From a virus, in the IMG/VR virus record IMGVR_UViG_3300022538_000189: 47,694 nucleotides of DNA. One strand, written 5' to 3'. Positions within the stretch are counted from its first letter, which is position 1. Each line of letters opens with the position of its first letter. Made by a program: the position numbers and the translations under genes. Below the pieces are notes generated by a model. It was not told where the DNA came from and did not search any database. It saw only the letters and a program-made list of their open reading frames with translations. Shown here in pieces: positions 683 to 47,694 of the stretch.

Positions 683-1726
683 CTAACTAAAATTTTCTCC
701 TAATATAGCATACCATTGCTCATCTGCAGTCTTATAAGTTAAACTTATAATATCTTCTGCTCCTGCATCTGTTGTTAAGATTCCCAAGGTTCCATCTATC
801 CATTTCACTAACTGTTGAACAGTATGGGTTCCTGTACCAGTATCAGTTAAATTAATAGCAGTTCCAGCTATCGCATTTGCTCTCGTAGTCGCTACTTTTA
901 TATGATTTTCCGAGCTTCTGATAGCCCAATAAATAGTGTCTACTACTAAAGGGTCTGGTAAATCAGCTGCCGTTGTTTTAAATCTAATTCTTGCACCAGT
1001 AGGAATATCAATAGATAAATCTATAATCTCCGTATCAGAATGAACATCAGTTGTGGCAATTGCTGCGTCGCTTTGAGTTACAATCTCATCCATTACTCTT
1101 GAACCTGTTCCGTCTTGGGTAACTATTAGCTGTGCGTTCATTGCTCCAGAAGGAGCAGTTATAGTAATAGTAAAATTATGTGCAGCAGTTAGAATTGCTT
1201 TATTGCTATTACCTAAATCCCAAGCTATGGCAGTTCCAGAGGTCAATGCCTGTTCTGTAAATACGGCAGAAAAAGCACCAAAATCTACTTCGTGTGCCCC
1301 TATACTTGAAGCCATGATGACCCAATTAGACCCATCAAGTCTTATAATAACCCAATTCCATTGATGTTGTAGTCCTACATAAGTAAATGCTCCATTAATC
1401 GTTTCACTGGCATTTGCATCTATAGTAATAAGATTACTGTTTGCATCTGTTTTAACTATAAAATATGTTAATCCAGTTAAATCTCCGCTTGCTGGTGGCA
1501 ATCCTAATGTCCAAGCACTCGCAGCAGTTACTTTAACAAAACCACCTTCACTTGAGGTTAAAGTTGCAGTTGTAGTTTTTGCAGTAACTCTACGCATCTC
1601 TGCTTGCATTTCTGTAATGGCATCCTCAATAATATCGTAGCTTGTACTGGTAACATCTTGTCCTGCTACTCTATCTGTATCTAAAACATCTTTACTTGCT
1701 GGATAATTCGCTTGTTCTTTAGCCAT
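683..1726 (-). CDS. Tail fibre protein.
   Basis: 347 aa with a helical N-terminal anchor-like segment followed by a long T/S/A/G/I-rich beta region. It abuts the upstream ORF (TAAATG) and sits at the distal end of the structural block. Confidence 0.5.
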   Translation of the reverse strand: MAKEQANYPASKDVLDTDRVAGQDVTSTSYDIIEDAITEMQAEMRRVTAKTTTATLTSSEGGFVKVTAASAWTLGLPPASGDLTGLTYFIVKTDANSNLITIDANASETINGAFTYVGLQHQWNWVIIRLDGSNWVIMASSIGAHEVDFGAFSAVFTEQALTSGTAIAWDLGNSNKAILTAAHNFTITITAPSGAMNAQLIVTQDGTGSRVMDEIVTQSDAAIATTDVHSDTEIIDLSIDIPTGARIRFKTTAADLPDPLVVDTIYWAIRSSENHIKVATTRANAIAGTAINLTDTGTGTHTVQQLVKWIDGTLGILTTDAGAEDIISLTYKTADEQWYAILGENFS

Positions 1727-2239
1727 TTATATTTTCGTCTCCTCATCCCACATATCATCATCGGATTTTTCCTCTTCTCCCCATGTGACTGTGTTTTTAA
1801 TTTCTTCTGTCGCTGTTATAGTATTTTTTATTTCTTGTACCCAAGCAATACTCTTTTTATAAGCATCTGCTAATCCTGTAGCTTCTGCAAGTCTGCGTAT
1901 AGCAGTAGTTACTATTGTATCTACAACACCTATTGCTTCGGAAAAAATTAAGCGAAAAAGTAATGTATCTGTTATACCTATTGCTTCTGCGTGCTGTTCT
2001 ACTCCCGCTGTACCAATACCTTCTCCAGAACCTATAGCCTCTACCTGTGCTAATGTTCCTGTAGTAGCTTTGGCTTCTGCACTGCCCATAGCTTCCGCTT
2101 GTGCTAAAGTACCTATATTAGTAATAGCATCTGCACCACCTATAGCTTCGGTAGCTATTAAAGTGCCTATATCAAAAACAGACTCATCAAACCCTTGATC
2201 TGCTGTATCAAATTTACAGGATGGTTTATATGTTGGCAT
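1727..2239 (-). CDS. Repeat-containing fibre or collar-associated structural protein (EAIG repeats).
   Basis: 170 aa with about 7 degenerate copies of a (A/V)EA(I/M)G-containing unit. The DNA shows a recurring cctattgcttc / cctatagcttc motif. The C-terminus is acidic. Confidence 0.45.
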   Translation of the reverse strand: MPTYKPSCKFDTADQGFDESVFDIGTLIATEAIGGADAITNIGTLAQAEAMGSAEAKATTGTLAQVEAIGSGEGIGTAGVEQHAEAIGITDTLLFRLIFSEAIGVVDTIVTTAIRRLAEATGLADAYKKSIAWVQEIKNTITATEEIKNTVTWGEEEKSDDDMWDEETKI

Positions 2240-2248
2240 CTAACTACC

Positions 2249-2722
2249 TTATCCTACATCAGAGAATGTTATTGTTGCAACTATTTGTAGACTATCTACT
2301 GTAATGGCATTAAAATCAGCTACATTAAACATATCACCAGCAGATGCATCATTGAATAATCCGTATTCTGTAGCAGCCACAACTGTTGAAAACGTTTTTG
2401 TAAAAGTACAAGTTTTAGCACCGCCAGTATGTGCGTAAACTGCGGTTCCACGCTGGTCTTCACTCGATAGTGTAGTATCTCCTGTTCCTTGCCCTGTACC
2501 AGACCCGATAGCCATGTGTGTAATATCGCTTGGCTGTGCATTGAGTCCTAATACATCACATATAAGGTCAAATCCATCGTCTGTGATTAAGTTATTTACA
2601 GTTCTATCGAACACTTGTTCTAATATACCATTTTTATTATAGTTGCTGCCTATTAATCTTATTGTTCCACAAATTCTAAGTTTAGTTTCTCTAACTCCAA
2701 GTATTGCATCTTGTTTAAACAT
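2249..2722 (-). CDS. Hypothetical virion protein in the fibre/baseplate region.
   Basis: 157-aa ORF with SD aaaggag 8 nt upstream of the ATG. Located between the giant virion protein and the fibres. Confidence 0.4.
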   Translation of the reverse strand: MFKQDAILGVRETKLRICGTIRLIGSNYNKNGILEQVFDRTVNNLITDDGFDLICDVLGLNAQPSDITHMAIGSGTGQGTGDTTLSSEDQRGTAVYAHTGGAKTCTFTKTFSTVVAATEYGLFNDASAGDMFNVADFNAITVDSLQIVATITFSDVG

Positions 2723-2773
2723 TTATTAACTCCTTTAATTTTTTTCTATTTTTTGCTGTAAAGAGATTCATAT

Positions 2774-5700
2774 CTATCTTTTGTATCTTTGTTGTGGCGT
2801 TTTATAACCACTCCTCTTATATCTTTCCGTAGGGGACTTATAAGCCCCGCTTGTGATATAAGATTTCTTTTTCTTCTCAGTCTTACCATAGAAGAATAAT
2901 TCTTCCATAGATATATTTCCATTTAATACATCGTTCCATGTTTTTATCCCAAGATAGCCAGGAATCAATGCTTGATATACTCTTTTTAAACGTCCCATTG
3001 CTTTCTGTCTATCATAATCACTTTGTGCAAAGGCATATTGATATACTGCCATAGCTGCACCTGCTGCAGGAGACCAATACATTGGTAACACGCCAAATAA
3101 GAATGACTTCTTATATCCTAATCCATTAAGGACTATACCACCGATAAGCAAATATTTAAGATAGTTAAATCTCTCTGATGGTGGGAGTTTCATTCCATAA
3201 CCACTTTCTCCTTTAAATAATCTGGTTGTTGCTTCTCTTGTAAAGTTAAAGAAGTAATTCATCCACCAACTTTGAAGTCTTGTAAATGGAACAGTTGACT
3301 TATATCTAAAAATACCTGGCATTCCTATAGGAGTATATTGATATTGGCAAGCTCTTGCTCCCCATTCCATTTCTTTTAAAAGTTTTTCTTTTTCACTATC
3401 AAACAAGAATCCTTCTTGTGTATCAGCAGTCCTCTCCTTATCTGCCCAACTATACTTTGTATGCTGGTATTTACCGTTTATCTTACTCATATTAAAATGA
3501 AATGCAGCTTTCATAGAATTACCAGCATTCCATATAGCAGACATTTGATATCCTTTGAGCCATAAGTCACCAAGTCTGCTTAGTGTTCCTTCTGGTATTT
3601 CTTCTAATCCAGTATATGAACGATAGTAGATACTTTCATTCATTAGTTCCCTACATTGTTTTGTAGCTGGGAACAAACCTTTTATAGTAGCCCTTACTCC
3701 ATACAATGCAATATTCTGTACTGTCTGAAAACAATTCCTTAATATCTGTCGTGGAATTGGTCCCATTACAGCATAGATAATTAACCTACCAGTTCCAGCT
3801 AACACTCTTGTTAATGGTTTTGGTCCAAGTCGTCTACCATAAGGAAGTAATAATTTATCTAATAATCCTTTCAATCCACTCTGGTTAAGAATATCGTTTA
3901 TAGCTACATCTGTTTCATTTTCTTGTCCTTTGATAACTTGATTAACATAATCTACAAGCCATCTTTTAGTTGTAGAAGGGATAGTTCCAGGCACAGTATC
4001 AAGAGCATCTAAACTTTCCACAAGTCCTTTGAGTGGTTTAGCTAAATGTATCTCCTTTAATGCTGTCCATAACATAGCATTTGTTACAAGACGTAAGTCC
4101 TTACTCCATAATGCGGTAAGTTCATCTCCCAACTTTCTTCTAATAGAGGCAGGATTATAGATTCCACCTGCTATTTTCTTTTCTATAAATCTTATAATTT
4201 CCTCAGGAAAAGGGAAATCTCTAAAGTCTACTGGATTCGTAGTATCAGTTTCCAGTAAACCATATTTTAACATTGCGGCTTCTGCCATGACATCAATGAT
4301 ATGCTTGAAATAAGCTTTCTTTCCTTTAATAGGTCTTAATCCAAGTTCCATTCTTACTTCATTCTGCCGTCTCAATAATGTTTTTCTTAAATTATCAAGA
4401 TATTTGAATACTTTAGCTTCTTGTTCTGAAAGATCTTTCGGAGCTACTTCATAAGTATTCAATAACTCAGCCATCCTGGCTTCTATCGGTGTAGGTTTAT
4501 GTCTTACAAAAGCTGTCCACCTCTGTCCGATTGTAGTTACGCCTCTACCCAAACTACTAATAACCTTACCTGCAATATTTGATGCATTTCTATATTCTAT
4601 ATCTTGTTCTTGTTTACCTTTTTCAGCAGCTTCTACTATAGGTTTCACACCAAGAACTTCACTATAAACAATATGCGGAGTAAGTAATTTAGCTAAAAAT
4701 GTAGGTCTTTTAAATCCTTTGGTCTTTTCAAGAATCTTAGCAGCTTTATCCAACTGCGTAATAATAGTTTCCACTTCTGTTCGTGACAGTTGGTCAACTC
4801 TTTTATCATATAAATTTTCAGCTGCTTTTCTAAATCGTGGGTCTTTCTCTAATAGAGTTTCAAGTGTAGTCTGTTGTTCCTTTGTTGGCTCTATCTTCTT
4901 TTCACCTGCAAGTATTTCTTCTTCAAGGGTAGATATCATATCTTCCATAGTTTCAACTTTAATCTTTAAGTTGCTTATATCTGGGTCTGTGATTCTACTC
5001 TCTGCATCTTCAAATGTATATTTTTTAGGTCTATCTTTTAAAATATCAACTACTGCTGCTCTTAATTCATCCTCTGACATAGGTTTTTGTAGGTCGCTTG
5101 CGACTTCATCTGGTCTACTCAGATTAGGATTATCTCTAAATATATAAGCATATTGTCCACGTCCAAGAGCTTCTTTCCATTCGGTTTGAGTAGTCTCTGG
5201 AGTTCTCATCTTAACGTGTCCGAAAGCAATAGCTTCTACTTCTGTTTTAGGTGTGCTTCTTTCTTTATTTAACTTATCACGTTCAGCCCTAACATATTTT
5301 TTATAAAGACTGTCCATAGCATTTTTCTGTCTCTCAAATTCCTTTAATGATTTGGTTTCAGTCTTTAGAGTTTCTCTAAGTTTATCTTCTTCTGCCTTTA
5401 ATTGATCTAATGGTTTCTTCTCAGTATAGATTTTCTGTTCTTCTTCTGTAAATAATAATTCATCTAATTCGGGTTTGGTTGGCTCAATCTTCATTTGTTC
5501 GCCAGTATCACCAATCTCCTCACCAGTAAATGTAATCTCAGGTTGTTCTACCTGTTCAGTAGTTCCACTTGTATCTAATTCCTGTTCTTCTGCTTTCTTG
5601 ACTGCTTTTAATACATTGCTTACAGAAGCTTTAATATCAGGATTATCATTTTTAACCCTGTCTGCTTCTATAGCCATGTTAAGCATATTCTTCTTATACT

Positions 5701-20239: not shown

Positions 20240-21640
20240 CTAATAACCCACAAATGGGTCGCTATGTTCTATTACATATTTCAATAAATCTTTTTGTTGT
20301 TTGATATAATCGCTTGTTCTCATTACAATATCCGATTTTTCAGCTAATCCTAACATTCTCATAGCATCTGCTCCGTGAGTATGTTTATCTTTACGTGGTG
20401 TCTCTGACCATATATTGAAAGTTTTATTATAGGATTTTGAATAATTTTCAAGATGCTCAATTAATAATGCAGCTTTAACTCTATCAAAATAACATTTAGG
20501 TATGAAATTTCTTGTGGCTTCTATTCCATCTTGTAAATCAGTTCTCGGAACTAATTGGAAGATGATACCATGTTCCTTTGCTACTGCTATTTGAGGTTTG
20601 CCATCATTAGAAAAGACACGTGCTTTTAAGTCATGTGGTCCATAATGGTTTCCATAAACATAACTAAGTTCTGCTCGGTATTGTTGAAGTATTCCTGCGT
20701 AATGTCCGATACCTTCACCACTATTCTCATAGTAGTTTATAATATGATATTCGCCTGGAAGTTTTTGAAAAAAAATAATTGCGGTAGCATCATCAATTCC
20801 TACATCCCATGCAGTATGAACTGGTAATGCTGGGTCATGCGGTATATTCTTAATTCTTTGTGTTTGCCATGCCTGATTCATCAACCTTGCGTAATAGGCT
20901 CCAGCAGTTCCATAGTCGAAACTACAATAATATTCTTGCTGAATAAAAGCTTCATCTACATTTCTTCTACGCAATGATTCTATTTGAGCAAGTGTGATAA
21001 CAGGACTTCCATCTTCTCTAATGGTATGGTCAATAGTCCTTAGCATGGTAAACCAATCATCATCTTCTTGTGCAAATTTCCATAAATTCCAACCATGATT
21101 TCTACCATTAGGTGTATAAAGGAATTTAGCCCATCCGTCATTCTCTAATAAAATAGGTTCGATAACTTCCCATGCTCGTGGATCTTGATGAGCATACTCT
21201 GAAAATACAGCACCAACACAATTTGTACCACGTGCAGCATCAAAATCATCAGTTCCTATAAATTGGATAATTGAACCATTGATAAGTTCAATTGACATTT
21301 CTGTACTATTAATTTTTGGAAAACCTTTATTGCCAATAGCAATAAGTTCATCTGGGATATAACTAAGAAATCTTCTGCCTGGAATTGGTGGATGATGACG
21401 TGGATCTCCCCCTGTCATTCCTTTCCAGATAACTTTTCTTGCTTGTGTAGCAGTAGGAAAGAAGTAATTATAAGTTCCTATTCTTTCCGTAGCAGCTTTT
21501 GTAACATCATTAACAGCAGTTAAATCTTTTCCTGCCCTTCGATGCCATATATATATCTCACGTAAATACCCCATACCACGTGCTTGTAACATTGGAATTT
21601 GATAATTTCGTGGAGCAAATTCGTGTGGAAGATGTATCAT
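20240..21640 (-). CDS. terL: Terminase large subunit.
   Basis: I chose the ATG at 21640 (SD AAGAGGA). Walker-A-like WHRRAGKDLT sits in the N-terminal ATPase half. The C-terminal nuclease half contains acidic motifs (AWDVGIDDATAI…). The 31-codon upstream extension in the ORF track lacks an SD. Confidence 0.8.
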   Translation of the reverse strand: MIHLPHEFAPRNYQIPMLQARGMGYLREIYIWHRRAGKDLTAVNDVTKAATERIGTYNYFFPTATQARKVIWKGMTGGDPRHHPPIPGRRFLSYIPDELIAIGNKGFPKINSTEMSIELINGSIIQFIGTDDFDAARGTNCVGAVFSEYAHQDPRAWEVIEPILLENDGWAKFLYTPNGRNHGWNLWKFAQEDDDWFTMLRTIDHTIREDGSPVITLAQIESLRRRNVDEAFIQQEYYCSFDYGTAGAYYARLMNQAWQTQRIKNIPHDPALPVHTAWDVGIDDATAIIFFQKLPGEYHIINYYENSGEGIGHYAGILQQYRAELSYVYGNHYGPHDLKARVFSNDGKPQIAVAKEHGIIFQLVPRTDLQDGIEATRNFIPKCYFDRVKAALLIEHLENYSKSYNKTFNIWSETPRKDKHTHGADAMRMLGLAEKSDIVMRTSDYIKQQKDLLKYVIEHSDPFVGY

Positions 21641-21902
21641 GTAGCGTCCTCTTTTGCAGATTATGATATTGATAATGTAATCCGTGTCCTGTGAGGACAC
21701 ACTTTGCAGTTTAAATATAATTTGGCAAACCAAGTAGGAGTTTAACCCACGCCAAAACGTTTGGAGCGTCTTATGCTGTCGTTACACCATTGGCTCACGT
21801 GTTGGATGCACAGGATTTACTTGCAGACCTATTATCTGCTCACCTATACATCCATTAGTGCAGTTTTTTTGGTTATCAGTAGAGACTGCTAACTCTAACA
21901 TT

Positions 21903-22822: not shown

Positions 22823-22897
22823 TGGAGCCCATAGACCAGAATCGAACTGTCATCTAAGGTATACAACACCCTTATAATACCATTATACTATACAGGC
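22823..22897 (-). tRNA. tRNA-Thr (UGU), CCA encoded.
   Basis: Acceptor GCCTGTA/TATGGGC, anticodon arm AGGGT-GTTGTAT-ACCTT, T loop TTCGATT. The T stem has a 1-nt bulge in my hand fold. Confidence 0.6.
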
Positions 22898-25070: not shown

Positions 25071-25478
25071 TTAATCCCCCTTCTGTTTTATATCCAAAAC
25101 TTCTTCTTTTATAATCTTTGCCTCGATGATGGTACCATTGTGTTCTTCTCCAAACTTCTTTTGTTTTTCTTTTCTCGGTAACATATCAGGACTTGCATAA
25201 TAATTCTTTATTGCTATCTGTATAGGTTTTATGTCCCTCTCAGCGATAGTTAAATTAGGCACAAATTTATCAACTAACTTCATAAGTACTTTGTCATCTT
25301 TGAATGCACGTTCTATAATATATTCTATAAGGCGTGTATCATGCCTCTTTTCTACCTTTTCAATTGCTCTTTCTAAAAGTTCACGAGTTATAGGTTTTCT
25401 GCTTACCTGTAACTTATTACCTTTGATAAATTGTCCTGCTATATCTCTTCCCTCTTTAACTACCTGTACTTTTCTCAT
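25071..25478 (-). CDS. Hypothetical basic helical protein; weak candidate for the DNA-binding small terminase.
   Basis: 135 aa with SD GGCGGGGA. No diagnostic motif; listed as a candidate only because no small terminase gene (terS) is recognisable next to terL. Confidence 0.25.
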   Translation of the reverse strand: MRKVQVVKEGRDIAGQFIKGNKLQVSRKPITRELLERAIEKVEKRHDTRLIEYIIERAFKDDKVLMKLVDKFVPNLTIAERDIKPIQIAIKNYYASPDMLPRKEKQKKFGEEHNGTIIEAKIIKEEVLDIKQKGD

Positions 25479-25834: not shown

Positions 25835-26128
25835 CTATAAAAATTTATTATCCTTTAATACTTGATATAATCCAACACTAAGTCTGGACACATCATCCTC
25901 TCTCAATCCGCCCCCATTATAATTTGCATCTACTGCATGGAGTATTTCATGGAGAAGTGTTTCTTCTATATTTGTTTTATTTATTTTTTTACCTTTATAT
26001 TTTGTTGCCAGAAATATTATATTTTTACTGTGATCTGCTTCTCCAACTAAATTTTTATTGGATAATCCTTCATTGTCCCATATAATATCGTAATAATGTC
26101 CAGCTACTTTAATCTTTTTTGGTATCAT
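25835..26128 (-). CDS. Small HExxH zinc metallopeptidase-like protein.
   Basis: I chose the ATG at 26128 (SD AAGAGGAAAG). 97 aa with LLHEILHAVD. Confidence 0.5.
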   Translation of the reverse strand: MIPKKIKVAGHYYDIIWDNEGLSNKNLVGEADHSKNIIFLATKYKGKKINKTNIEETLLHEILHAVDANYNGGGLREDDVSRLSVGLYQVLKDNKFL

Positions 26129-26286
26129 CTTTCCTCTTTTCTTGATAACGTATAAACCCCCAATACGCAACCCACTAACCCTATCTGAGTACTCAAATCA
26201 GTCCGCAATGAAATTACGTAATGACATGTTATAATGTCATTGCACAGGTGATTCCCAGTCAACGAAAATTCATATTACTTCCTATC

Positions 26287-26466: not shown

Positions 26467-26640
26467 TATTTCCTCTTTATTATTCTTAATGTTTCCCACA
26501 TTGCCTCAAACTTTTCGCCACGCTGGAGTAGGGCGATAATATTATCTATCCTTTTACTATTTTTATTTTAATTCCTTCACTCGGAGTGCCACTTAATCAT
26601 CAAATATTCTATCCGATTTCCTCATTCTCGTTTCATATAT

Positions 26641-26669
26641 AGTATAGCACATTTCGTTCCATTTGTCAA
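26641..26669 (-). promoter_or_regulatory. Sigma-70/SigA-type promoter (family member P1) driving the leftward block.
   Basis: Minus-strand sequence TTGACAAATGGAACGAAATGTGCTATACT: -35 TTGACA, a 17-nt spacer with TGTGn extended -10, and -10 TATACT. Confidence 0.7.
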
Positions 26670-26853
26670 GTCTTTTTTATAATTATCTTCATTTTTTTTT
26701 AATTATTTTCACAAAAACTTTTAATGCAGGAGAATAAATCTATCCACCCCATGGACGAGGGACATTTCGCCCTTATTTTACAACGGTTTCAAAAATCGTA
26801 AATTCTTATATTTTTATATATATTTGCCAAATTTTTTTATTCTTTTACATTAG

Positions 26854-27088
26854 GAGTGAATGCGACCAGTCAAGGGATTCCTTAAAAAAAAAGTAAAGGA
26901 GAGGTACCCATACCCTTCTCGTGATAGATAAGAGTATAATGTGTTTGATATTAAATTAAAATTAGGAGACACTCCGTGCTCCTTCTTTTAATTTAAATTA
27001 AGATACTGTATATTAAAAGGATAACAAAAGCTTTAAGGTGTCCACTTCGTGGACAAAGATTCCGTTCGCTCCCTCTGGTCGCTCACTC
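26854..27088. repeat. Long-range interrupted inverted repeat (19 paired positions) enclosing 192 nt.
   Basis: Left arm GAGTGA-at-GCGACCAG-tca-AGGGA (26854-26877). Right arm TCCCT-CTGGTCGC-TCACTC (27070-27088). The arms are GC-rich islands in an AT-rich spacer. Confidence 0.7.
26951..26996. repeat. 46-nt near-perfect palindromic hairpin (bidirectional terminator or cruciform candidate).
   Basis: TTAAATTAAAA-tt-AGGAG-a-CAC-tcc-GTG-CTCCT-tc-TTTTAATTTAA. Confidence 0.7.
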
Positions 27089-27512
27089 AAACCCCCGCCC
27101 ACAAATGAAGGATTGTTCATATATGCAAATATAAGGATATATAGGGATAATGCTCACTTAATGTAATTAGAACTATTTAAAATGGATCTTAAATTACTAT
27201 CCTAATACTAATCTTAATGCAGGGAAATTTAATATTAAATTAAGGCAGGAATAAGATAATAAGATAGTGCTACCCCTTATTTAGTGATATTTTGAATAAA
27301 TCCCGAATAGCGGAATAGAGGAATAAAGGATATATAAGACCCTGCTAACGCAGGGAATAATAAAAGAAAATTAGTTAAATCAATTAGTATTACTTATGTA
27401 ATGTATCTATCCTATACTAAGATGATACGGATATAATAACTAATATCAAATAGCAACCGCCCTCGACCCTTTTAAATAAGTGAAAATAAATGAAAATAAA
27501 TCGCTAAAACCC

Positions 27513-27542
27513 TTGACAAGTATATTAAATCTATGATAAAAT
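27513..27542 (+). promoter_or_regulatory. Rightward promoter of the plus-strand block.
   Basis: TTGACA at 27513-27518, an 18-nt spacer ending in TGa, and -10 TAAAAT at 27537-27542. Confidence 0.55.
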
Positions 27543-27713
27543 AAGAGAAAAAAGAGCAACCAACGAAACCATAAAAACGCCAAAGCCCACTGGAACTTGA
27601 AAAGTGAAAAATTAAAGGAGATAGTAAGGCACAGCGACCTATTATCTCTGACCGACCCAATGAAAAGCAAAGGAGATATAAAGCGAATAAGAATAATACT
27701 TATAGCTTTATAG

Positions 27714-27803
27714 ACCCATCTATTAAAGGGATAGAATGGAAATTCCCTTACTTGAACTGATAACGCCATAGATGGGTTTATTAAGGTTATACTTATACCT
27801 TAA
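27714..27803 (+). promoter_or_regulatory. Structured 5' leader upstream of the lipoprotein gene.
   Basis: Nested stems ACCCATCTA/TAGATGGGT (27714-22 / 27769-77) and AAGGGA/TCCCTT. A second hairpin TTAAGGT-9 nt-ACCTTAA (27781-27803) lies 8 nt before the SD. Confidence 0.5.
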
Positions 27804-27827
27804 ATAAAAAGAAAGGAGAATAAAACA

Positions 27828-32435: not shown

Positions 32436-32450
32436 GGAATAGGAAGAAAA

Positions 32451-32487
32451 ATACCCTGCAATTTTGATATTGCAGGGTATTTTTTTT
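32451..32487 (+). terminator. Rho-independent terminator ending the amidoligase operon.
   Basis: ATACCCTGCAAT-6 nt-ATTGCAGGGTAT (12-bp stem) followed by TTTTTTT. Confidence 0.85.
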
Positions 32488-32620
32488 GTGTCAGGAAAAA
32501 AGACCTCGAAAAACCCCCTAAATTCTGCTTTTAAACCCTCTTTACATACAAACACAAGCAAAAATAACAAAACCCCACCAGCAACGCATACGACCCCTTA
32601 AATCCGATTTGTTAATAAAA

Positions 32621-32731
32621 TGTGTATAACTTTTGGAAAATGTGTATAACTGAAAAAAAATGTTGAAAAAGTGTTAATAAATCGAAAAAAATGTGGAAAA
32701 CCTGTGGAAAACTCTTGACTTTTGTGGATAA
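32621..32731. promoter_or_regulatory. Cluster of five same-orientation DnaA-box-like 9-mers.
   Basis: TGTGTATAA at 32621 and 32641; TGTGGAAAA at 32692 and 32703; TGTGGATAA at 32723. Their complements are TTATACACA, TTTTCCACA and TTATCCACA. Weaker TGTTGAAAA and TGTTAATAA lie between them. Confidence 0.6.
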
Positions 32732-32743
32732 CTATGTTATAAT
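32715..32743 (+). promoter_or_regulatory. Consensus promoter whose spacer contains a perfect DnaA box.
   Basis: TTGACT (32715-20), 17-nt spacer tttGTGGATAActatgt, TATAAT (32738-43). Confidence 0.65.
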
Positions 32744-32864
32744 ATTTATAGAATTTTGAACAGAAGAAAAATGTAAGAAAATCGAACATAAAAACCAGAC
32801 AGGAAAAAAGACCTAAGATGAAAATAAAATAAAAACTTAAATGAAGGCGAAAGTCAAAAAAAGA

Positions 32865-32893
32865 CTTGACAAATAAGAAAAAGTGTGATACAA
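32865..32893 (+). promoter_or_regulatory. Promoter of the conserved family (P6), rightward.
   Basis: TTGACAAATAAGAAAAAGTGTGATACAAT with a 17-nt spacer and TGTGn extended -10. Confidence 0.65.
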
Positions 32894-32921
32894 TAAAAAC
32901 AAAAAGGGGGTGATAAATAAT

Positions 32922-33095
32922 ATGAAAGTAACAAAGATGGTTCAAATCCGTTTTATTGGTTACGAAAAAATTGTAGATTTTGCAATTGATTGTTTAAGAG
33001 CTCAATTAGAGGATAATATAAAGTGCAGAAGGCAGGAAGAGAAGGACATCAATACTATTGAAGCTCAAATAATAAGAGTAAGTGGGGGGTGGTAA
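32922..33095 (+). CDS. Hypothetical small protein.
   Basis: I chose the ATG at 32922 (SD AAGGGGGTGA). 57 aa. Confidence 0.45.
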   Translation: MKVTKMVQIRFIGYEKIVDFAIDCLRAQLEDNIKCRRQEEKDINTIEAQIIRVSGGW

Positions 33096-39378: not shown

Positions 39379-40341
39379 TTAACACCCCCATAACATCTTT
39401 TCAACCTCAAACATTATAAATTTTTCCCAATACTTTCTATCTACTTTATCAGGATAGTCGCTTGCGACTGCTAAGTCTTTTACTTCTCCGATAAGAGTTT
39501 CCAGTAAAGGAGCAACTTCGCTCTTGTAATCTATTTTTCCTGCTTTGATATCTTTCAAGTATTCTGCTTGTGCCAATGGAAATTTTATTTCTCCATCTTT
39601 ATAGAGTTCTATCAACTGCATTGAGGCTCTTATAGCATGAGATACTGCCTTCCAATCTATTCCTTCATTCTTTTCTGCTAATCTTGCTCTTGCACCATAA
39701 GCATTATAAAACGTTACCATTATATCAAAAAGATATCGCAAGGTAGCAGTCTCCTGTATTTTTTTACCACATACTTGATAAATCCTAAGTCTGTCCTTTC
39801 CTATCTCGTATTTATGGATATGTTCTCTTTGTGGTAGTTTATCCCAAACCTGCTTTAATCTTGTCTTGTTCATATCATTACCCTTCTGTGTATCAAAATC
39901 ATTAATGAAATCCATAACTTTTCCAGCAGAGGCTAACCTACTCCCCTTAATTCCATATTTAGAAGCTTGTCTCATTGCATATCCTACAAAAGCATGCATG
40001 TCTTTTGTTATGAAAAGATGTTTATTGAGACATATTGCTTTCCAAGTATCTGATGTTTCTAAAATCATATCATCAGGAGCGTGAAGCATATCAATAGCAA
40101 CGGTTTGCCCCTGACAAGCCAATTCCAAAAAGTAATGTAACGAATAGACTTCTGTATCTGTATCTCCCGAAGTATTTTTGCCTACTCCAACCTTTGTTTT
40201 TTCTGAATAACATTTTGGTATTCTCCCTAAAAATATTTGTTCTTTAGTGGGCATAAATATACCCTTATAATCAGTATCAGAATCTTTCGTATCTGTTCCG
40301 TATAAATGACTTCCGAATTTCATTTTTACTATTGTATTCAT
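39379..40341 (-). CDS. Pol-beta-superfamily nucleotidyltransferase of the RlaP (RNA-repair-associated) type.
   Basis: 320 aa. N-terminal KFGSHLYGTDTKDSDTDYKGIFMP. TAATG-coupled to dnaB. Confidence 0.55.
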   Translation of the reverse strand: MNTIVKMKFGSHLYGTDTKDSDTDYKGIFMPTKEQIFLGRIPKCYSEKTKVGVGKNTSGDTDTEVYSLHYFLELACQGQTVAIDMLHAPDDMILETSDTWKAICLNKHLFITKDMHAFVGYAMRQASKYGIKGSRLASAGKVMDFINDFDTQKGNDMNKTRLKQVWDKLPQREHIHKYEIGKDRLRIYQVCGKKIQETATLRYLFDIMVTFYNAYGARARLAEKNEGIDWKAVSHAIRASMQLIELYKDGEIKFPLAQAEYLKDIKAGKIDYKSEVAPLLETLIGEVKDLAVASDYPDKVDRKYWEKFIMFEVEKMLWGC

Positions 40342-41627
40342 TACTTACCACCGCCTTGATATAAGTCAGGTTGATATTGAGTAAAAGAAATGTGTTCCAT
40401 TCGTGCATATTCAGGAAATATATTAACCCCTATCCTTCCTATCGTACCGTCTCTATTCTTACTGATCAATATCTTCATTTCTTCAGGTTCTTCTCCGCCA
40501 AACCTTTCAGGATTAATCATTTGTAGTCTCTCTTTCCAATACAATAACAACACAATATTGCTAACTTCCTCTATCCTGCCTGATTGTCTTAAATCACTCA
40601 ATCTCGGTTCTCTAATCTCTTCGTTGTTACGATTGAACTGTGATAAACAGACAGTTCCAAGTCCATTTCGTAATGTCATTCGTTGTAATTCGATAATATT
40701 ATTTGACGTAGAGGTATAATCCTGTTCACCTAAATTCTGCAAGTAATCGAATACTAAGAAGTCGGGTTTATACTTTCTAACATATTTATTTGCGTCAGTC
40801 ATGCTAAAGACTTTCTTGATGTTCAAATTCCATTCCCCTGAAATTTGTTTTGCTCGTCTTTGTAATCTATTCTGTTCTTCATCGGTAAGATTATTTTTTC
40901 TAATCCTCATAATAGGAATTAACTCAAGATTACCCAATAATCTCCTACTTACTTCTTGCGGTGTCATTTCGGTAGATAAAAATAAAACCCCCTTACCACA
41001 CTTACATTGATTAATAGCCATTTGCATACCTGCAACTGACTTACATTGTGAAGTCCAACCGCCTATAGTTAAGAGTTCTCCTCTATCTAATCCGCCTATA
41101 TATTTATTTAAACTTCTTATCCCGAAAGTAAACTCTGTTCCTTTGGTAACTTCCATTAAAGTTTTTTCAAGCAACATTTGTAATGTTTCTTCTTTAATCT
41201 CTATATTATTGAGAGTTTCTAATTCTGTCAAAGCATCATCAATAGTCATTTGTCCGTCATTTACTGCTGTCAAAAGTCCATGCTGTGCTCTTTTGATAGA
41301 TGCTTTTTGAATTAAAGCGACATAATGCTCTATATTTTTAGGTGTAGGAACTGAATTCACTAAATTGGTAAGATACGTAACACCACCTATTTTTTCTAAC
41401 TTGCCTACCTCATTCAATCCTGATGTAATAGTTACTAAATCTACATTGACACCTGTTTGTAGCATATCTACCATCAATTTATATATTGTCTTATGCTCAC
41501 CTTTGTAAAAGTCATTTGGTGACAATGTCTCAACTGTAATGAAGAAAGCGTCCTCGTCTAATAAACAACTTCCAAGACAAGCCTGTTCTGCATTTATTTC
41601 TTGTGGTAAATTCTTTGTTAAGTTCAA
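40341..41627 (-). CDS. dnaB: DnaB-family replicative helicase.
   Basis: 428 aa with a TTG start (SD AGGGGGTG). Motifs NAEQACLGSCLLD, FDYLQNL and LRQSGRIEEVSNIVLLLY. The P-loop reads GGWTSQCKS, not GxxxxGK[ST]. Confidence 0.75.
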   Translation of the reverse strand: MNLTKNLPQEINAEQACLGSCLLDEDAFFITVETLSPNDFYKGEHKTIYKLMVDMLQTGVNVDLVTITSGLNEVGKLEKIGGVTYLTNLVNSVPTPKNIEHYVALIQKASIKRAQHGLLTAVNDGQMTIDDALTELETLNNIEIKEETLQMLLEKTLMEVTKGTEFTFGIRSLNKYIGGLDRGELLTIGGWTSQCKSVAGMQMAINQCKCGKGVLFLSTEMTPQEVSRRLLGNLELIPIMRIRKNNLTDEEQNRLQRRAKQISGEWNLNIKKVFSMTDANKYVRKYKPDFLVFDYLQNLGEQDYTSTSNNIIELQRMTLRNGLGTVCLSQFNRNNEEIREPRLSDLRQSGRIEEVSNIVLLLYWKERLQMINPERFGGEEPEEMKILISKNRDGTIGRIGVNIFPEYARMEHISFTQYQPDLYQGGGK

Positions 41628-41729: not shown

Positions 41730-42431
41730 TTAATTCAAATCTTTCAATACTCCACTTGTTACTGTACCACACTTTTGCCTATTTGTCAAGTATTTATATT
41801 CTTCTAAATAGTTTCCATATTTAGTCTTGTTAAAAACAGTAGATGGTCGGAGATACATTTCAAATTCTGTTCCCATTCTCTTTTTACAAATGAACTTAAT
41901 TACTTCGCAAATCTCCTCGATAGGAGAGCCATCTTTAACTCTTGCTTTTATGTTAGACAAAACAGTTCTGTTATCGAACTTGAAATTCCGCCCTGTCAAG
42001 TTATTCAAAACTTCAATAGGGGATCTGTATTTAGCTATCAAGTCAACAAGAGTATTAATGTTATTATCAGTATTTGGTATATTAGTATTTAATAGTACTT
42101 CATTTTCAACGTGCCTGTTTTGTACATCTTGCTTCTGATTCTGTGGGTCTTGTATCAAGAAATATTCATTACCTGAAATTTTATTGTCTTTTCTCAATAC
42201 AACACAATGGATATAACCCTTTTTTGTAAGTTCTCTTATTCCATTTCTTATTGACTTCTCTCCATTTGTAAAATGTGTAAGCAGTTCGGTTATATGTAAA
42301 TCCCAATTATCGGGCAAGGTCAAAAGGTATGCAAAGATACCCTTTGCCTTAGCCGATAGTGATGTGTCTCTTATCCATCTATTACTCATTACTGTAAAGT
42401 CTCTTGCGACTTTACTTCGTATTATCCTCAC
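41730..42431 (-). CDS. Replication initiator/organiser (DnaD-like N-terminal wHTH plus a conserved phage C-terminal domain).
   Basis: 233 aa with a GTG start (SD GAGGGGGAA). FTVMSNRWIRDTSLSAKAKGIFAYLLTLPDNW… and a C-terminal part …NLTGRNFKFDN…IKARVKDG…YLRPSTVF. Confidence 0.65.
   Translation of the reverse strand: MRIIRSKVARDFTVMSNRWIRDTSLSAKAKGIFAYLLTLPDNWDLHITELLTHFTNGEKSIRNGIRELTKKGYIHCVVLRKDNKISGNEYFLIQDPQNQKQDVQNRHVENEVLLNTNIPNTDNNINTLVDLIAKYRSPIEVLNNLTGRNFKFDNRTVLSNIKARVKDGSPIEEICEVIKFICKKRMGTEFEMYLRPSTVFNKTKYGNYLEEYKYLTNRQKCGTVTSGVLKDLN
41761..41789 (-). promoter_or_regulatory. Promoter family member P5, inside the 3' end of the initiator gene and upstream of dnaB.
   Basis: Minus-strand sequence TTGACAAATAGGCAAAAGTGTGGTACAGT. 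Confidence 0.5.
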
Positions 42432-47414: not shown

Positions 47415-47615
47415 TTACATCACCACCCATACTAAAACTCCACCAGCTATGGTAGCCATAATGTCCCAGATATCCATATAACTATGCTTAACTTTCAAGT
47501 CGTATACTTCCTTTAATACTGCAATTATAATTACAGGAATAATCGGGTAAGTTATAAAGTAATTCGCCATTAAGAATATAACCATACCCGCAATAAAATG
47601 TAATAATTTATCCAT
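47415..47615 (-). CDS. Small two-TM membrane protein.
   Basis: 66 aa. Its ATG lies inside the terminal repeat and overlaps the stop of the 7-648 gene in the circular form. Confidence 0.5.
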   Translation of the reverse strand: MDKLLHFIAGMVIFLMANYFITYPIIPVIIIAVLKEVYDLKVKHSYMDIWDIMATIAGGVLVWVVM

Positions 47616-47694
47616 TAGAAATTTGCCCCAAACATTATTGCATTTGCTTCTGATGGAAATTCACCTAACCCCGTTCCTATTTTTACATAATCAA
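47609..47694. repeat. Terminal direct repeat, copy 2 (identical to 1-86).
   Basis: Identical 86 nt. Confidence 0.9.

What the first reader, a model, noticed from the sequence alone, without database searches (positions are those of the whole stretch)
26467..27827. 1.36-kb gene-free divergent control region in an otherwise densely packed genome
Seen: there is no credible ORF between the first leftward gene (ATG 26466) and the first rightward gene (ATG 27828). The only ORFs over 60 aa are F/L-rich antisense artefacts without an SD.

The region contains:
- A leftward consensus promoter (26641-26669) and a rightward promoter (27513-27542).
- About 840 bp between the promoters with GC-rich islands in AT-rich DNA.
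- Recurring short motifs: TCTATCC at about 26545, 26617, 26738 and 27406, plus a shorter CTATCC at about 27199.
- AAGGATATATA at 27132 and 27325.
- (A/C)GCAGG(G)AATAA-like strings at 26727, 27219, 27245 and 27348.
- Tandem TGAAAATAAA x2 at 27481-27500.
- A hairpin CCCTGC-taac-GCAGGG at 27339-27354.

Inference: about 3 percent of the genome kept non-coding suggests function. It could be a replication origin with iterons, a packaging site, or one or more structured non-coding RNAs.
Basis: partly seen in the sequence, partly recalled or inferred. Interest (0 to 1): 0.62.

Follow-up and report, generated by a model that had tools for sequence, protein, structure and literature searches.

The report
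Conserved gene-free phage control region
A 1.36-kb stretch without genes between the two outward-facing gene blocks of an uncultured 47.6-kb phage is real and is kept at the same place in at least six related phages; it holds two strong promoters, a conserved RNA leader and a core of small, very stable DNA hairpins whose job, perhaps starting DNA replication, is unproven.

Summary
Window 26467-27827 has no credible ORF under three genetic codes. It is the only divergent switch of a circularly closed, about 99% complete phage genome. It carries two 11/12 sigma-70 promoters at the stated coordinates.

New here: the gene-free region recurs at the same place in six other uncultured phage lineages (0.97 to at least 1.45 kb). 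Its immediate flanking genes turn over between lineages. It aligns at 49-62% identity (71% for the closest pair), about as well as a neighbouring gene. No reading frame is conserved.

Conserved parts:
- both promoters, including the tandem TGAAAATAAAT upstream of P_R;
- about 100 nt of the P_R leader;
- about eight short blocks;
- a single-copy hairpin (27039-27055) with a C-GAA-G triloop on the minus strand.

In that hairpin, five of six stem pairs covary with no wobble pairs.

Not supported:
- a known RNA family (Rfam found nothing);
- a large conserved RNA fold;
- iterons;
- DnaA boxes, which cluster at 32.6 kb in this genome but inside the homologous region of one relative;
- a fixed genome end.

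TCTATCC and the other short motifs are marginal after correction for multiple testing and are mostly not conserved.

Best reading (about 35%): an early-promoter hub plus a DNA-level hairpin element for replication priming.

The parts
26641..26669 (-). P_L: leftward sigma-70-type promoter with extended -10 (TTGACA-17-TGTGCTATACT). It belongs to a family with a conserved spacer that recurs at least five more times in the genome.
   Evidence: 11 matches to TTGACA-N16-18-TANNNT against 3.1 expected. Conserved in L087 (two copies), L089, L091, L093, L100, L112 and L123.
26467..26634 (-). Leader of the leftward operon, about 168 nt. It is not structured and is not conserved in length among relatives.
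   Evidence: Fold z-score +1.05. In L112 the promoter lies about 30 nt from the first gene.
26860..26877 (.). Conserved block A: GCGACCAGTCAAG (GAC[CT]A[GA]TCAAG in all lineages). The AT and GC skews change sign just to its left.
26888..26923 (.). Conserved block AAAGG(G)GAG..CC(A/G)TACCCTT. It forms an invariant AAGGG/CCCTT stem with a loop of about 12 nt.
   Evidence: pairs invariant, so no covariation can be scored.
26935..27012 (.). Long AT-rich imperfect palindrome specific to this lineage. Its tip (26962-26982) reads GGAGCAC-GGA-GTGTCTCC on the minus strand, a second C-GNA-G hairpin. Followed by TTCTTTT on the plus strand.
   Evidence: I2: 34-nt arms, 74% complementary; z -4.0
27039..27055 (-). 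Single-copy perfect hairpin TGTCCAC-GAA-GTGGACA (minus strand), with a C-GAA-G triloop. It is kept in all lineages with different stems.
   Evidence: the only hairpin of this type in the genome; 88.9% of cells paired against 67.5% in shuffles; 5 of 6 pairs changed on both sides; none changed on one side only; 0 of 500 shuffles reach the score..
27059..27067 (.). Conserved ATTCCGTTC, between the two hairpin positions.
27070..27088 (.). Inverted, shortened copy of block A (TCCCTCTGGTCGCTCACTC). It pairs with 26854-26877. It is shared only with L123. Other lineages carry a hairpin with an AGTA loop at this position, or a deletion.
   Evidence: window core z -4.9
27094..27113 (.). Conserved GC-rich block D: CCCGCCCAC..ATGAAGG.
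   Evidence: An exact 19-mer search found it in only one other IMG/VR contig.
27250..27269 (.). Conserved AAGATAATAAGA block.
27384..27438 (.). Conserved blocks AGTATTA(C)TTAT, CTAT(C/A)CTATA and TACGGA. They include the one conserved TCTATCC copy.
27473..27545 (+). P_R: rightward promoter (TTGACA-18-TG-n-TAAAAT) with a conserved A-rich upstream element that includes the tandem TGAAAATAAAT. It is the best conserved part of the region.
   Evidence: on average 3.14 of 4 relatives identical per column.
27549..27827 (+). Leader of the rightward operon, about 280 nt. Positions 27574-27672 are conserved in L114 and L112 (the first part, to 27637, also in L087). It has hairpin 27617-27649, then lineage-specific hairpins (27706-27785, 27782-27806).
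   Evidence: z -3.51. Reading, pair 7 of the 27617-27649 stem is G-U in the window and G-C in L114.
27339..27354 (.). Hairpin CCCTGC-TAAC-GCAGGG. It is real but not conserved in any relative.

Best explanation
Shown:
- The stretch is a conserved, truly non-coding control region at the single point where the two transcription blocks of this phage diverge.
- Its edges are two strong host-type promoters. P_L belongs to the phage's early promoter family. P_R has a conserved A-rich upstream element and about 100 nt of conserved leader.
- Between them lies about 800 bp with no conserved promoter, no conserved reading frame and no conserved global RNA fold. It does have about eight conserved sequence blocks and one to three perfect mini-hairpins.
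- The loops of those hairpins are conserved (C-GNA-G, read on the minus strand; a second hairpin has an AGTA loop). Their stems change by full Watson-Crick compensation.

Inferred:
- The core acts as DNA, not as RNA or protein.
- The hairpins would extrude from DNA that is negatively supercoiled by the two outward-firing promoters, or fold when the minus strand is single-stranded. They would then be read by a structure-specific protein.
- The most likely such process is initiation or priming of phage DNA replication. Known examples are the single-strand initiation signals of RSF1010 and the primase site of phage G4. The known layout is the origin of lactococcal c2-type phages, which lies between the divergent early and late blocks.
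For: Conservation:
- A gene-free divergent region sits at the same place in the window (1361 nt), L100 (1380), L112 (1299), L114 (1152), L122 (972), L087 (at least 1453) and L123 (at least 864).
- Pairwise identity is 49-62%, and 71% for the closest pair, against 42-48% for shuffled controls. This is like the neighbouring 90-aa gene.
- The first genes on both sides are not shared between lineages.

Non-coding status:
- Peptide matches occur in all frames and follow no single open frame.
- No alternative-code ORF opens.
- Rfam finds nothing in the window or in six relatives.
- The consensus RNA fold is only -9.7 (plus strand) and -12.4 (minus strand) kcal/mol over about 370 columns.

Hairpins:
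- Hairpin covariation without any wobble pair.
- The hairpin is single-copy in the genome.
- C-GNA-G hairpins run at 0-2.3 per kb in these regions (5 of 7 lineages have at least one with a 3-bp stem). Flanking coding DNA has 0-0.4 per kb. All with stems of 5 bp or more lie on the minus strand.
- The core folds better on the minus strand in 6 of 7 lineages.

Origin-related hints:
- AT and GC skews switch sign beside block A in all five full-length lineages.
- L112 carries 3 perfect and 2 near-perfect DnaA boxes inside its copy of the region.

Literature:
- GNA/GNNA mini-hairpins occur at the G4 origin, at RSF1010 ssiA and at N4 promoters (PMC13037366).
- The c2-type origin lies in the non-coding region between divergent early and late genes (PMC7150918).
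Against:
- In this genome the only DnaA-box and iteron-like cluster lies 5 kb away at 32617-32731, in front of a promoter. That is a more conventional origin candidate.
- The replication genes (initiator 41730-42431, DnaB-like helicase 40341-41627) are 14 kb away.
- The region holds no iterons and no DnaA boxes beyond chance: 0 with up to 1 mismatch, and 6 with up to 2 mismatches against 7 expected.
- The region contains easily melted stretches, but not the genome's easiest.
- Watson-Crick covariation cannot by itself tell DNA from RNA, or one strand from the other. The purine-rich plus strand right of block A would also fit a rightward transcript.
- Only seven lineages are available, and two pairs of them are close.
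Confidence: 0.35

Rival explanations
1. Purely transcriptional control region. The conserved blocks and palindromes would be binding sites for host or phage regulators that set the timing and strength of P_L and P_R. Upstream activator or repressor sites, UP elements and DNA looping between distant sites would be involved. No role in replication.
For: - The best conserved part is P_R with 110 nt upstream of it (27402-27545).
- Both promoters share an inverted A-rich upstream module (I1, 46 nt, 76% complementary).
- P_L belongs to a promoter family with a conserved spacer, which suggests a common regulator.
- ACGGA-containing blocks occur in opposite orientation at 27061 and 27427.
Against: - In the hairpins the loops are conserved and the stems vary. 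This is the opposite of what a sequence-specific dimeric DNA-binding protein would preserve.
- 800 bp is far more than known divergent promoter pairs need.
- Blocks A to D lie 190-450 bp from either promoter.
Confidence: 0.25
2. A rightward non-coding transcript. A promoter just left of block A (window: TTGCCA-16-TACATT, 26824-26851) would make a long non-coding RNA or leader across 26855-27510. It would act either as an independent regulatory RNA or, like PE1-T of phage c2, as a replication-priming transcript.
For: - The plus strand turns purine-rich (A>T, G>C) from block A rightwards in all five full-length lineages, like the rightward mRNAs.
- A 9/12 promoter-like site lies at 26824-26851.
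- The window core folds strongly (z -5.1).
- The P_R leader hairpin shows a G-U to G-C change that fits plus-strand RNA.
- The c2 precedent (PMC7150918).
Against: - The putative promoter is not conserved, and 9/12 matches occur at chance frequency.
- There is no conserved terminator.
- The strong fold of the window comes from a lineage-specific inverted copy of block A. Relatives fold no better than shuffles on the plus strand (L087 z -0.3, L100 z -0.1).
- The consensus structure is negligible.
- There are no wobble pairs in the covarying stems.
- No Rfam family matches.
Confidence: 0.2
3. Packaging signal or physical genome end (cos, pac or direct terminal repeat) upstream of the head and packaging genes.
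For: - The region heads the leftward operon that runs into terL (20240-21733) and the portal.
- GC-rich block D lies in AT-rich DNA.
- Several short metagenome contigs break inside the region.
Against: - The contig breaks fall at different positions.
- The region is internal in the window's circularly closed assembly and in L112 (46.7-kb scaffold), L114 (22.6 kb), L100 and L122.
- terL is 5 kb away, beyond a tRNA array.
- The GC run of block D is not conserved in sequence.
Confidence: 0.05
4. Spacer made of decayed early genes and duplicated promoter modules, with no function of its own beyond the promoters.
For: - Small genes come and go here. L087 has an 81-aa ORF after P_R and a second P_L copy with a small ORF. 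L091 also has two P_L copies.
- About half of the columns are poorly conserved.
- Mismatches between L087 and L100 show a weak excess in one codon phase: 52/86/64.
Against: - Seven lineages keep about 1-1.4 kb gene-free while the neighbouring genes are replaced.
- Conserved blocks persist at 60% overall identity.
- The left 240 nt of the core is about 91-94% identical between L087 and L100, against 86% for coding DNA.
- The hairpin stems covary.
- No frame is preserved.
Confidence: 0.1

Closest known systems
Replication origin region of Lactococcus Ceduovirus phages (c2, bIL67 and 923 types)
   Same: A non-coding stretch lies between the divergently transcribed early and late gene blocks. It is bounded by strong early promoters, has no ORF and no ribosome-binding site, and is variable between lineages but functionally kept (PMC7150918).
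   Different: - There is no sequence similarity (no phage-database match).
- In c2 the origin lies between two tandem early promoters and needs the non-coding transcript PE1-T. Here no conserved promoter reads into the core.
- This region is about twice as long.
- Origin activity is untested.
Single-strand initiation signals and primase sites built on DNA mini-hairpins (phage G4 complementary-strand origin, RSF1010 ssiA/ssiB)
   Same: Very stable hairpins capped by GNA/GNNA loops closed by C-G. L087 and L100 carry exactly GCGAAGC, L122 carries GCGTAGC, and the window carries CAC-GAA-GTG. The loop is conserved and the stem is free to vary (PMC13037366).
   Different: - Those signals act on single-stranded templates of ssDNA phages or strand-displacement plasmids. 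This is a 47.6-kb dsDNA phage with a DnaB-type helicase and an HTH initiator.
- No primase gene was recognised, and no priming was shown.
Early promoter hairpins of phage N4, read by the virion RNA polymerase
   Same: A 5-7-bp stem with a 3-nt purine-rich loop (GGA or GAA), formed from supercoiled DNA (PMC13037366).
   Different: - N4 has several such promoters, each in front of early genes, and a giant virion RNA polymerase.
- Here the strong hairpin is single-copy with no gene downstream.
- Early transcription has consensus sigma-70 promoters.
- No RNA polymerase was recognised among the virion proteins.
DnaA-box or iteron origins (P1 oriR, lambda ori, bacterial oriC)
   Same: Relative L112 carries a phased cluster of 3 perfect and 2 near-perfect DnaA boxes inside the homologous region.
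   Different: The window's region has neither DnaA boxes nor iterons. Its DnaA-box cluster is at 32621-32731.

Membership tests
Ceduovirus (c2-type) intergenic origin | Non-coding region between the divergently transcribed early and late gene blocks | tested here: met
   The same layout occurs in L100, L112, L114 and L122.
Ceduovirus (c2-type) intergenic origin | Flanked by two tandem early promoters, the first of which makes a non-coding transcript (PE1-T) | tested here: inconclusive
   Only a 9/12 promoter-like site at 26824-26851 reads into the core. It is not conserved. No RNA data were available.
Ceduovirus (c2-type) intergenic origin | Sequence similarity to one of the three known origin types | tested here: not met
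   No blastn match in 50,697 phage records.
Ceduovirus (c2-type) intergenic origin | Supports plasmid replication in the host | not testable with these tools
   The host is unknown; this needs a bench experiment.
Mini-hairpin single-strand initiation or primase signals (G4 origin, RSF1010 ssi) | Stable hairpin with a GNA or GNNA loop closed by C-G, with the loop conserved | tested here: met
Mini-hairpin single-strand initiation or primase signals (G4 origin, RSF1010 ssi) | Recognised by a primase or primosome on single-stranded DNA, with primer synthesis nearby | not testable with these tools
   No primase gene was identified. The 284-aa neighbour of the initiator has no family match.
N4-type hairpin promoters | 5-7-bp stem and 3-nt purine-rich loop | tested here: met
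N4-type hairpin promoters | Several copies, each upstream of early genes, plus a virion-packaged RNA polymerase | tested here: not met
   Single strong copy with no downstream gene. No polymerase match for the 1366-aa virion protein or its neighbours.
Iteron origin (lambda ori type) | Three or more direct repeats of about 10-22 bp next to AT-rich DNA | tested here: not met
   The only repeats are the 10-nt tandem in the P_R upstream element and some two-copy matches.
DnaA-dependent origin | Cluster of DnaA boxes (TTATCCACA) | tested here: not met
   0 boxes with up to 1 mismatch in 26467-27827, and 5 within 110 bp at 32621-32731. The feature is met in relative L112.
Known structured RNA families (Rfam 15, including ROOL, GOLLD, riboswitches and leaders) | Match to a covariance model | tested here: not met
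   No match at gathering score. The best E-value is about 1-2.5, with bit scores far below the thresholds. Nothing in the regions of six relatives.
Genome terminus (cos or direct terminal repeat) | Assemblies end or close at this place; read starts pile up | tested here: inconclusive
   The region is internal in five assemblies and the contig breaks do not coincide. Read-level analysis was not possible.

The most novel reading that the evidence does not exclude
The core (about 26855-27115) is a new kind of origin or priming site for a double-stranded DNA phage. It would have no iterons and no DnaA boxes. It would instead be a single-copy set of minus-strand C-GNA-G DNA mini-hairpins, extruded by the negative supercoiling between two strong outward-firing promoters and read by a primase or primosome. 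This would link the mini-hairpin signals known from ssDNA phages and RSF1010 to tailed phages.
Probability: 0.2. Interest if true: 0.65.

Novelty: new variant of a known kind. Interest (0 to 1): 0.4.

Why it matters
Large gene-free regions between divergent phage operons are usually left unannotated. Here comparison shows that one such region is a core, selected feature of a small group of uncultured podovirus-like phages. It is more stable in position than the genes beside it. The comparison narrows its working parts to two promoters, a leader, and a hairpin element of about 260 bp whose loops are conserved while its stems covary.

If the hairpin element is a replication or priming signal, it would extend DNA mini-hairpin initiation signals to tailed dsDNA phages. 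It would also give a sequence signature for finding origins in metagenomic phage genomes. If it is only regulatory, the finding is an ordinary, though well-defined, early control region.

Tried and rejected
- Known RNA families: Rfam at gathering and at permissive thresholds, on the window and on six relatives. Nothing found.
- tRNA or tmRNA in the region: none.
- Hidden coding. No ORFs open under table 4 or TAG=Q. Six-frame peptide comparison among three lineages gave matches in all frames. The 81-aa ORF of L087 has no remnant in the window.
- Large conserved RNA fold. RNAalifold on both strands with 3 and 6 sequences found only local hairpins. The long-range helix GCGACYAGTCA/TGAAGG.. from the 3-sequence fold is not kept in L112 or L114 (reading).
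- The window's 19-bp long-range pairing (26854-77 with 27070-88) is shared only with L123. It is better read as an inverted copy of block A.
- Iterons, by repeat and tandem-repeat scans: none.
- DnaA boxes: none here.
- Short motifs from the finding. TCTATCC and CTATCC are marginal after correction. GGATA/TATCC is the most consistently enriched 5-mer in all five lineages, but only about 1.8-fold (34 observed against 18.5 expected), which is not significant after correction.
- Easiest-melting DNA: the region is not the genome minimum.
- Wider distribution. Exact or degenerate motif scans of IMG/VR found only L087. The GTDB scan gave 4 hits in high-GC bacteria, as many as my rough estimate for chance, so I took them as chance. 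There was no phage-database match.
- N4-like virion RNA polymerase: no evidence.
Rakonjac et al. 2003 was not held.
- MAFFT misaligned the four AGTA-loop hairpins, so those were read directly.
Full report
**What the window is.** Window positions 156-47551 equal an IMG/VR virus record of 47,396 bases, estimated 99% complete. The first 85 bases of the window repeat at 47610-47694, so the assembly closes into a circle of about 47.6 kb. The genome has about 30% G+C.

Recognised genes:
- podovirus-like structural genes and terL (20240-21733; best annotated relatives are at 36-42% identity);
- a tRNA array;
- an RtcB and nucleotidyltransferase block;
- a DnaB-like helicase (40341-41627) and an HTH/Phg_2220_C replication initiator (41730-42431).

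Genes run leftwards from 26466 through the closure point down to 35770. They run rightwards from 27828 to about 35305. So 26467-27827 is the only divergent switch of the genome.

**Check of the observation.** The region has no credible ORF.
- The only frames of 60 aa or more (27446-27769 and 27472-27660, minus strand) lie over the rightward promoter and are not kept in relatives.
- Table 4 and TAG=Q open nothing.
- Both promoters are at the stated coordinates with 11 of 12 consensus positions and an extended -10.
- P_L belongs to a family of TTGACA-N17-TGTGnTAnnnT promoters found at five other places in the genome. The looser pattern gives 11 matches against 3.1 expected.
- The tandem TGAAAATAAAT, the AAGGATATATA pair and the 27339 hairpin are real.
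- TCTATCC occurs five times here out of 14 in the genome. One coordinate should read 26608, not 26617.
- After correction over all 7-mers this enrichment is not significant (0.2).
- Rfam has no family here, even at E up to 5.

**Relatives.** Protein-guided searches found a small lineage of uncultured phages with the same gene order. A gene-free divergent region sits at the same place in six other lineages:

| Lineage | Coordinates | Length | Note |
|---|---|---|---|
| L100 | 931-2310 | 1380 nt | |
| L112 | 3035-4333 | 1299 nt | 46.7-kb scaffold |
| L114 | 3383-4534 | 1152 nt | |
| L122 | 2170-3141 | 972 nt | contains an N run |
| L087 | | at least 1453 nt | contig ends inside the region |
| L123 | | at least 864 nt | |

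- The regions align along their length at 49-62% identity, and 71% for L087/L100. Shuffled controls give 42-48%. The neighbouring 90-aa gene gives 48-60% (78%), and the well-conserved 135-aa gene gives 67-81% (88%).
- The left 240 nt of the core is about 91-94% identical between L087 and L100, more than their coding DNA at 86%.
- The genes directly beside the region are not shared. The window's 169-aa lipoprotein, 59-aa protein and HExxH protein are absent or replaced in L112 and L114. The shared genes begin further out.
- The non-coding stretch is therefore more stable in position than its neighbours.

**It is not coding.**
- Six-frame peptide comparison among three lineages gives short matches in every frame, following nucleotide conservation and not any one open frame.
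- The indels between lineages shift the frame in the conserved blocks (reading).
- One caveat: mismatches between L087 and L100 show a weak excess in one phase (52/86/64). I cannot tie this to any frame.

**Conserved parts.**
- (i) P_L.
- (ii) P_R with about 110 nt upstream, including the tandem TGAAAATAAAT. This is the best conserved part.
- (iii) The first 100 nt or so of the P_R leader (27574-27672), conserved in L114 and L112; its first part (to 27637) also in L087. It includes a hairpin (27617-27649) in which one pair is G-U in the window and G-C in L114. The whole leader folds with z -3.5.
- (iv) Blocks at 26860-26877, 26888-26923, 27094-27113, 27250-27269, 27384-27399 and 27402-27438.
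- (v) A hairpin at 27039-27055.

**The hairpins.** On the minus strand the 27039-27055 hairpin reads TGTCCAC-GAA-GTGGACA. The same position in relatives reads as follows:

| Lineage | Minus-strand sequence |
|---|---|
| L112, L123 | GTCCAC-GAA-GTGGAC |
| L114 | ATAGGCAC-GAA-GTGCCTAT |
| L100 | GTGAGC-GAA-GCTCAC |
| L087 | GC-GAA-GC within CGAGCGAAGCGAG |
| L122 | GC-GTA-GC |

- Counted on an ungapped alignment, 88.9% of cells pair, against 67.5% in shuffles.
- Five of six pairs changed on both sides, and none changed on one side only.
- No shuffle and no slid register comes close.
- It is the only hairpin of this type in the 47.6-kb genome.
- C-GNA-G hairpins with 3 or more stem pairs are rare in the genome: 9 on both strands together, 2 of them here against 0.26 expected.
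- They run at 0-2.3 per kb in the relatives' regions, against 0-0.4 per kb in their coding DNA. All with stems of 5 bp or more are on the minus strand.
- A second hairpin with a conserved AGTA loop and unrelated perfect stems follows in L114, L122, L087 and L100.
- At that position the window and L123 instead carry an inverted, shortened copy of block A, and L112 has a deletion.
- That inverted copy explains the strong fold of the window's core (z -5.1 and -4.9). The strong fold is not general: z on the plus strand runs from -0.1 to -3.8 in relatives, and on the minus strand from -0.6 to -4.9.
- RNAalifold finds only the local hairpins.

**RNA or DNA.** Several things point to a DNA-level element and not a structured RNA:
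- loops are conserved while stems are free and perfectly Watson-Crick;
- there are no wobble pairs;
- there is no conserved global fold;
- there is no conserved promoter reading into the core;
- there is no terminator.

GNA triloops closed by C-G are the extraordinarily stable DNA mini-hairpins. L087 and L100 carry exactly GCGAAGC. These are described at the primase site of phage G4, in ssiA of RSF1010 and in the N4 virion-polymerase promoters (PMC13037366).

Against a pure DNA reading, the plus strand becomes purine-rich from block A rightwards in all five full-length lineages, as the rightward mRNAs are. A rightward transcript therefore stays possible.

**Which function.**
- Iteron origin: not supported.
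- DnaA-box origin: not supported in this genome. There are 0 boxes here, and the only cluster (five boxes with iteron-like spacing, one inside a promoter spacer) is at 32621-32731 in a second gene-free stretch. Yet relative L112 carries 3 perfect and 2 near-perfect DnaA boxes inside its copy of the region. So the DnaA-box module and this region can be joined.
- Genome end or packaging: the region is internal in five assemblies, and the contig breaks of the shorter assemblies do not coincide. I rate this low.
- N4-type promoter: the copy number, the missing downstream gene and the missing polymerase speak against it.

The closest known layout is the origin of lactococcal c2-type phages: a non-coding stretch between divergent early and late blocks, bounded by early promoters (PMC7150918). 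However, there is no sequence similarity, and the priming transcript that defines that origin is not shown here.

I commit, at about 35%, to an early-promoter hub whose core is a hairpin-based DNA element for replication initiation or priming. The rivals are a purely regulatory region (25%), a rightward non-coding transcript (20%), decayed spacer (10%) and a packaging site (5%).

Earlier notes of this scan describe similar gene-free divergent regions and C-GAA-G hairpin clusters in other phage genomes. The kind of thing has therefore been seen before on other DNA; this lineage and its anatomy have not.

Noticed in passing
window 32436-32922: A second gene-free stretch of about 490 bp. It holds a strong terminator (32453-32480), then five co-oriented DnaA boxes (32621-32731) with iteron-like 20/11-bp spacing, one of them inside the spacer of TTGACT-17-TATAAT, then a promoter of the P_L family at 32866-32894. 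It is the most conventional origin candidate in this genome.
   Followed up: partly
L112 3386-3768 (reverse strand), homologous to window about 27125-27250: Relative L112 carries TTATCCACA three times, two of them 11 bp apart, plus two inverted TTATCAACA, inside its copy of the gene-free region. The window has unconserved AT-rich DNA at that place. The DnaA-box module seems to move between non-coding sites in this phage group.
   Followed up: partly
window 25835-26128 (-): A 97-aa protein with an HEILH (HExxH) motif (phrog_1233). It is widespread in phage contigs and usually sits just upstream of terminase, HNH or portal genes (for example L094, L012, L019). It is absent from L112 and L114. 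The annotated TTG start at 26170 is probably too far upstream; relatives start at the MKIP.. position.
   Followed up: partly
L087 51-296 (-) and about 1185-1325 (+): L087 has an 81-aa ORF with an HEYLH motif directly after P_R. It also has a small ORF of about 46 aa behind a second copy of P_L. Neither is present in the window. The edges of the region are a hotspot for gain and loss of small genes with their own promoter copies.
   Followed up: partly
window 25071-25478 (-): A 135-aa protein, 67-85% identical across all relatives and the most conserved gene near the region. It has no family assignment (only a weak phrog_25956 hit). Given its position ahead of the tRNA array and terL, it could be the missing small terminase subunit.
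   Followed up: no
window 22827-22897 (-): Rfam calls a tenth tRNA (32.3 bits, just above threshold) that ARAGORN does not report.
   Followed up: no
L123 3413-3492 and L114 7084-7192: Weak tmRNA-model matches below the gathering score lie inside the tRNA arrays of two relatives. They are probably odd tRNA-like units and not tmRNA.
   Followed up: no
window 27608-27628 and 27663-27683: Two copies of AAAGGAGATA (Shine-Dalgarno-like), 55 nt apart in the P_R leader, with no start codon behind either. The second is preceded by a conserved ATGAAAAGCAAAGGAGA that opens mini-ORFs of 9-17 codons with different sequences in three lineages.
   Followed up: partly
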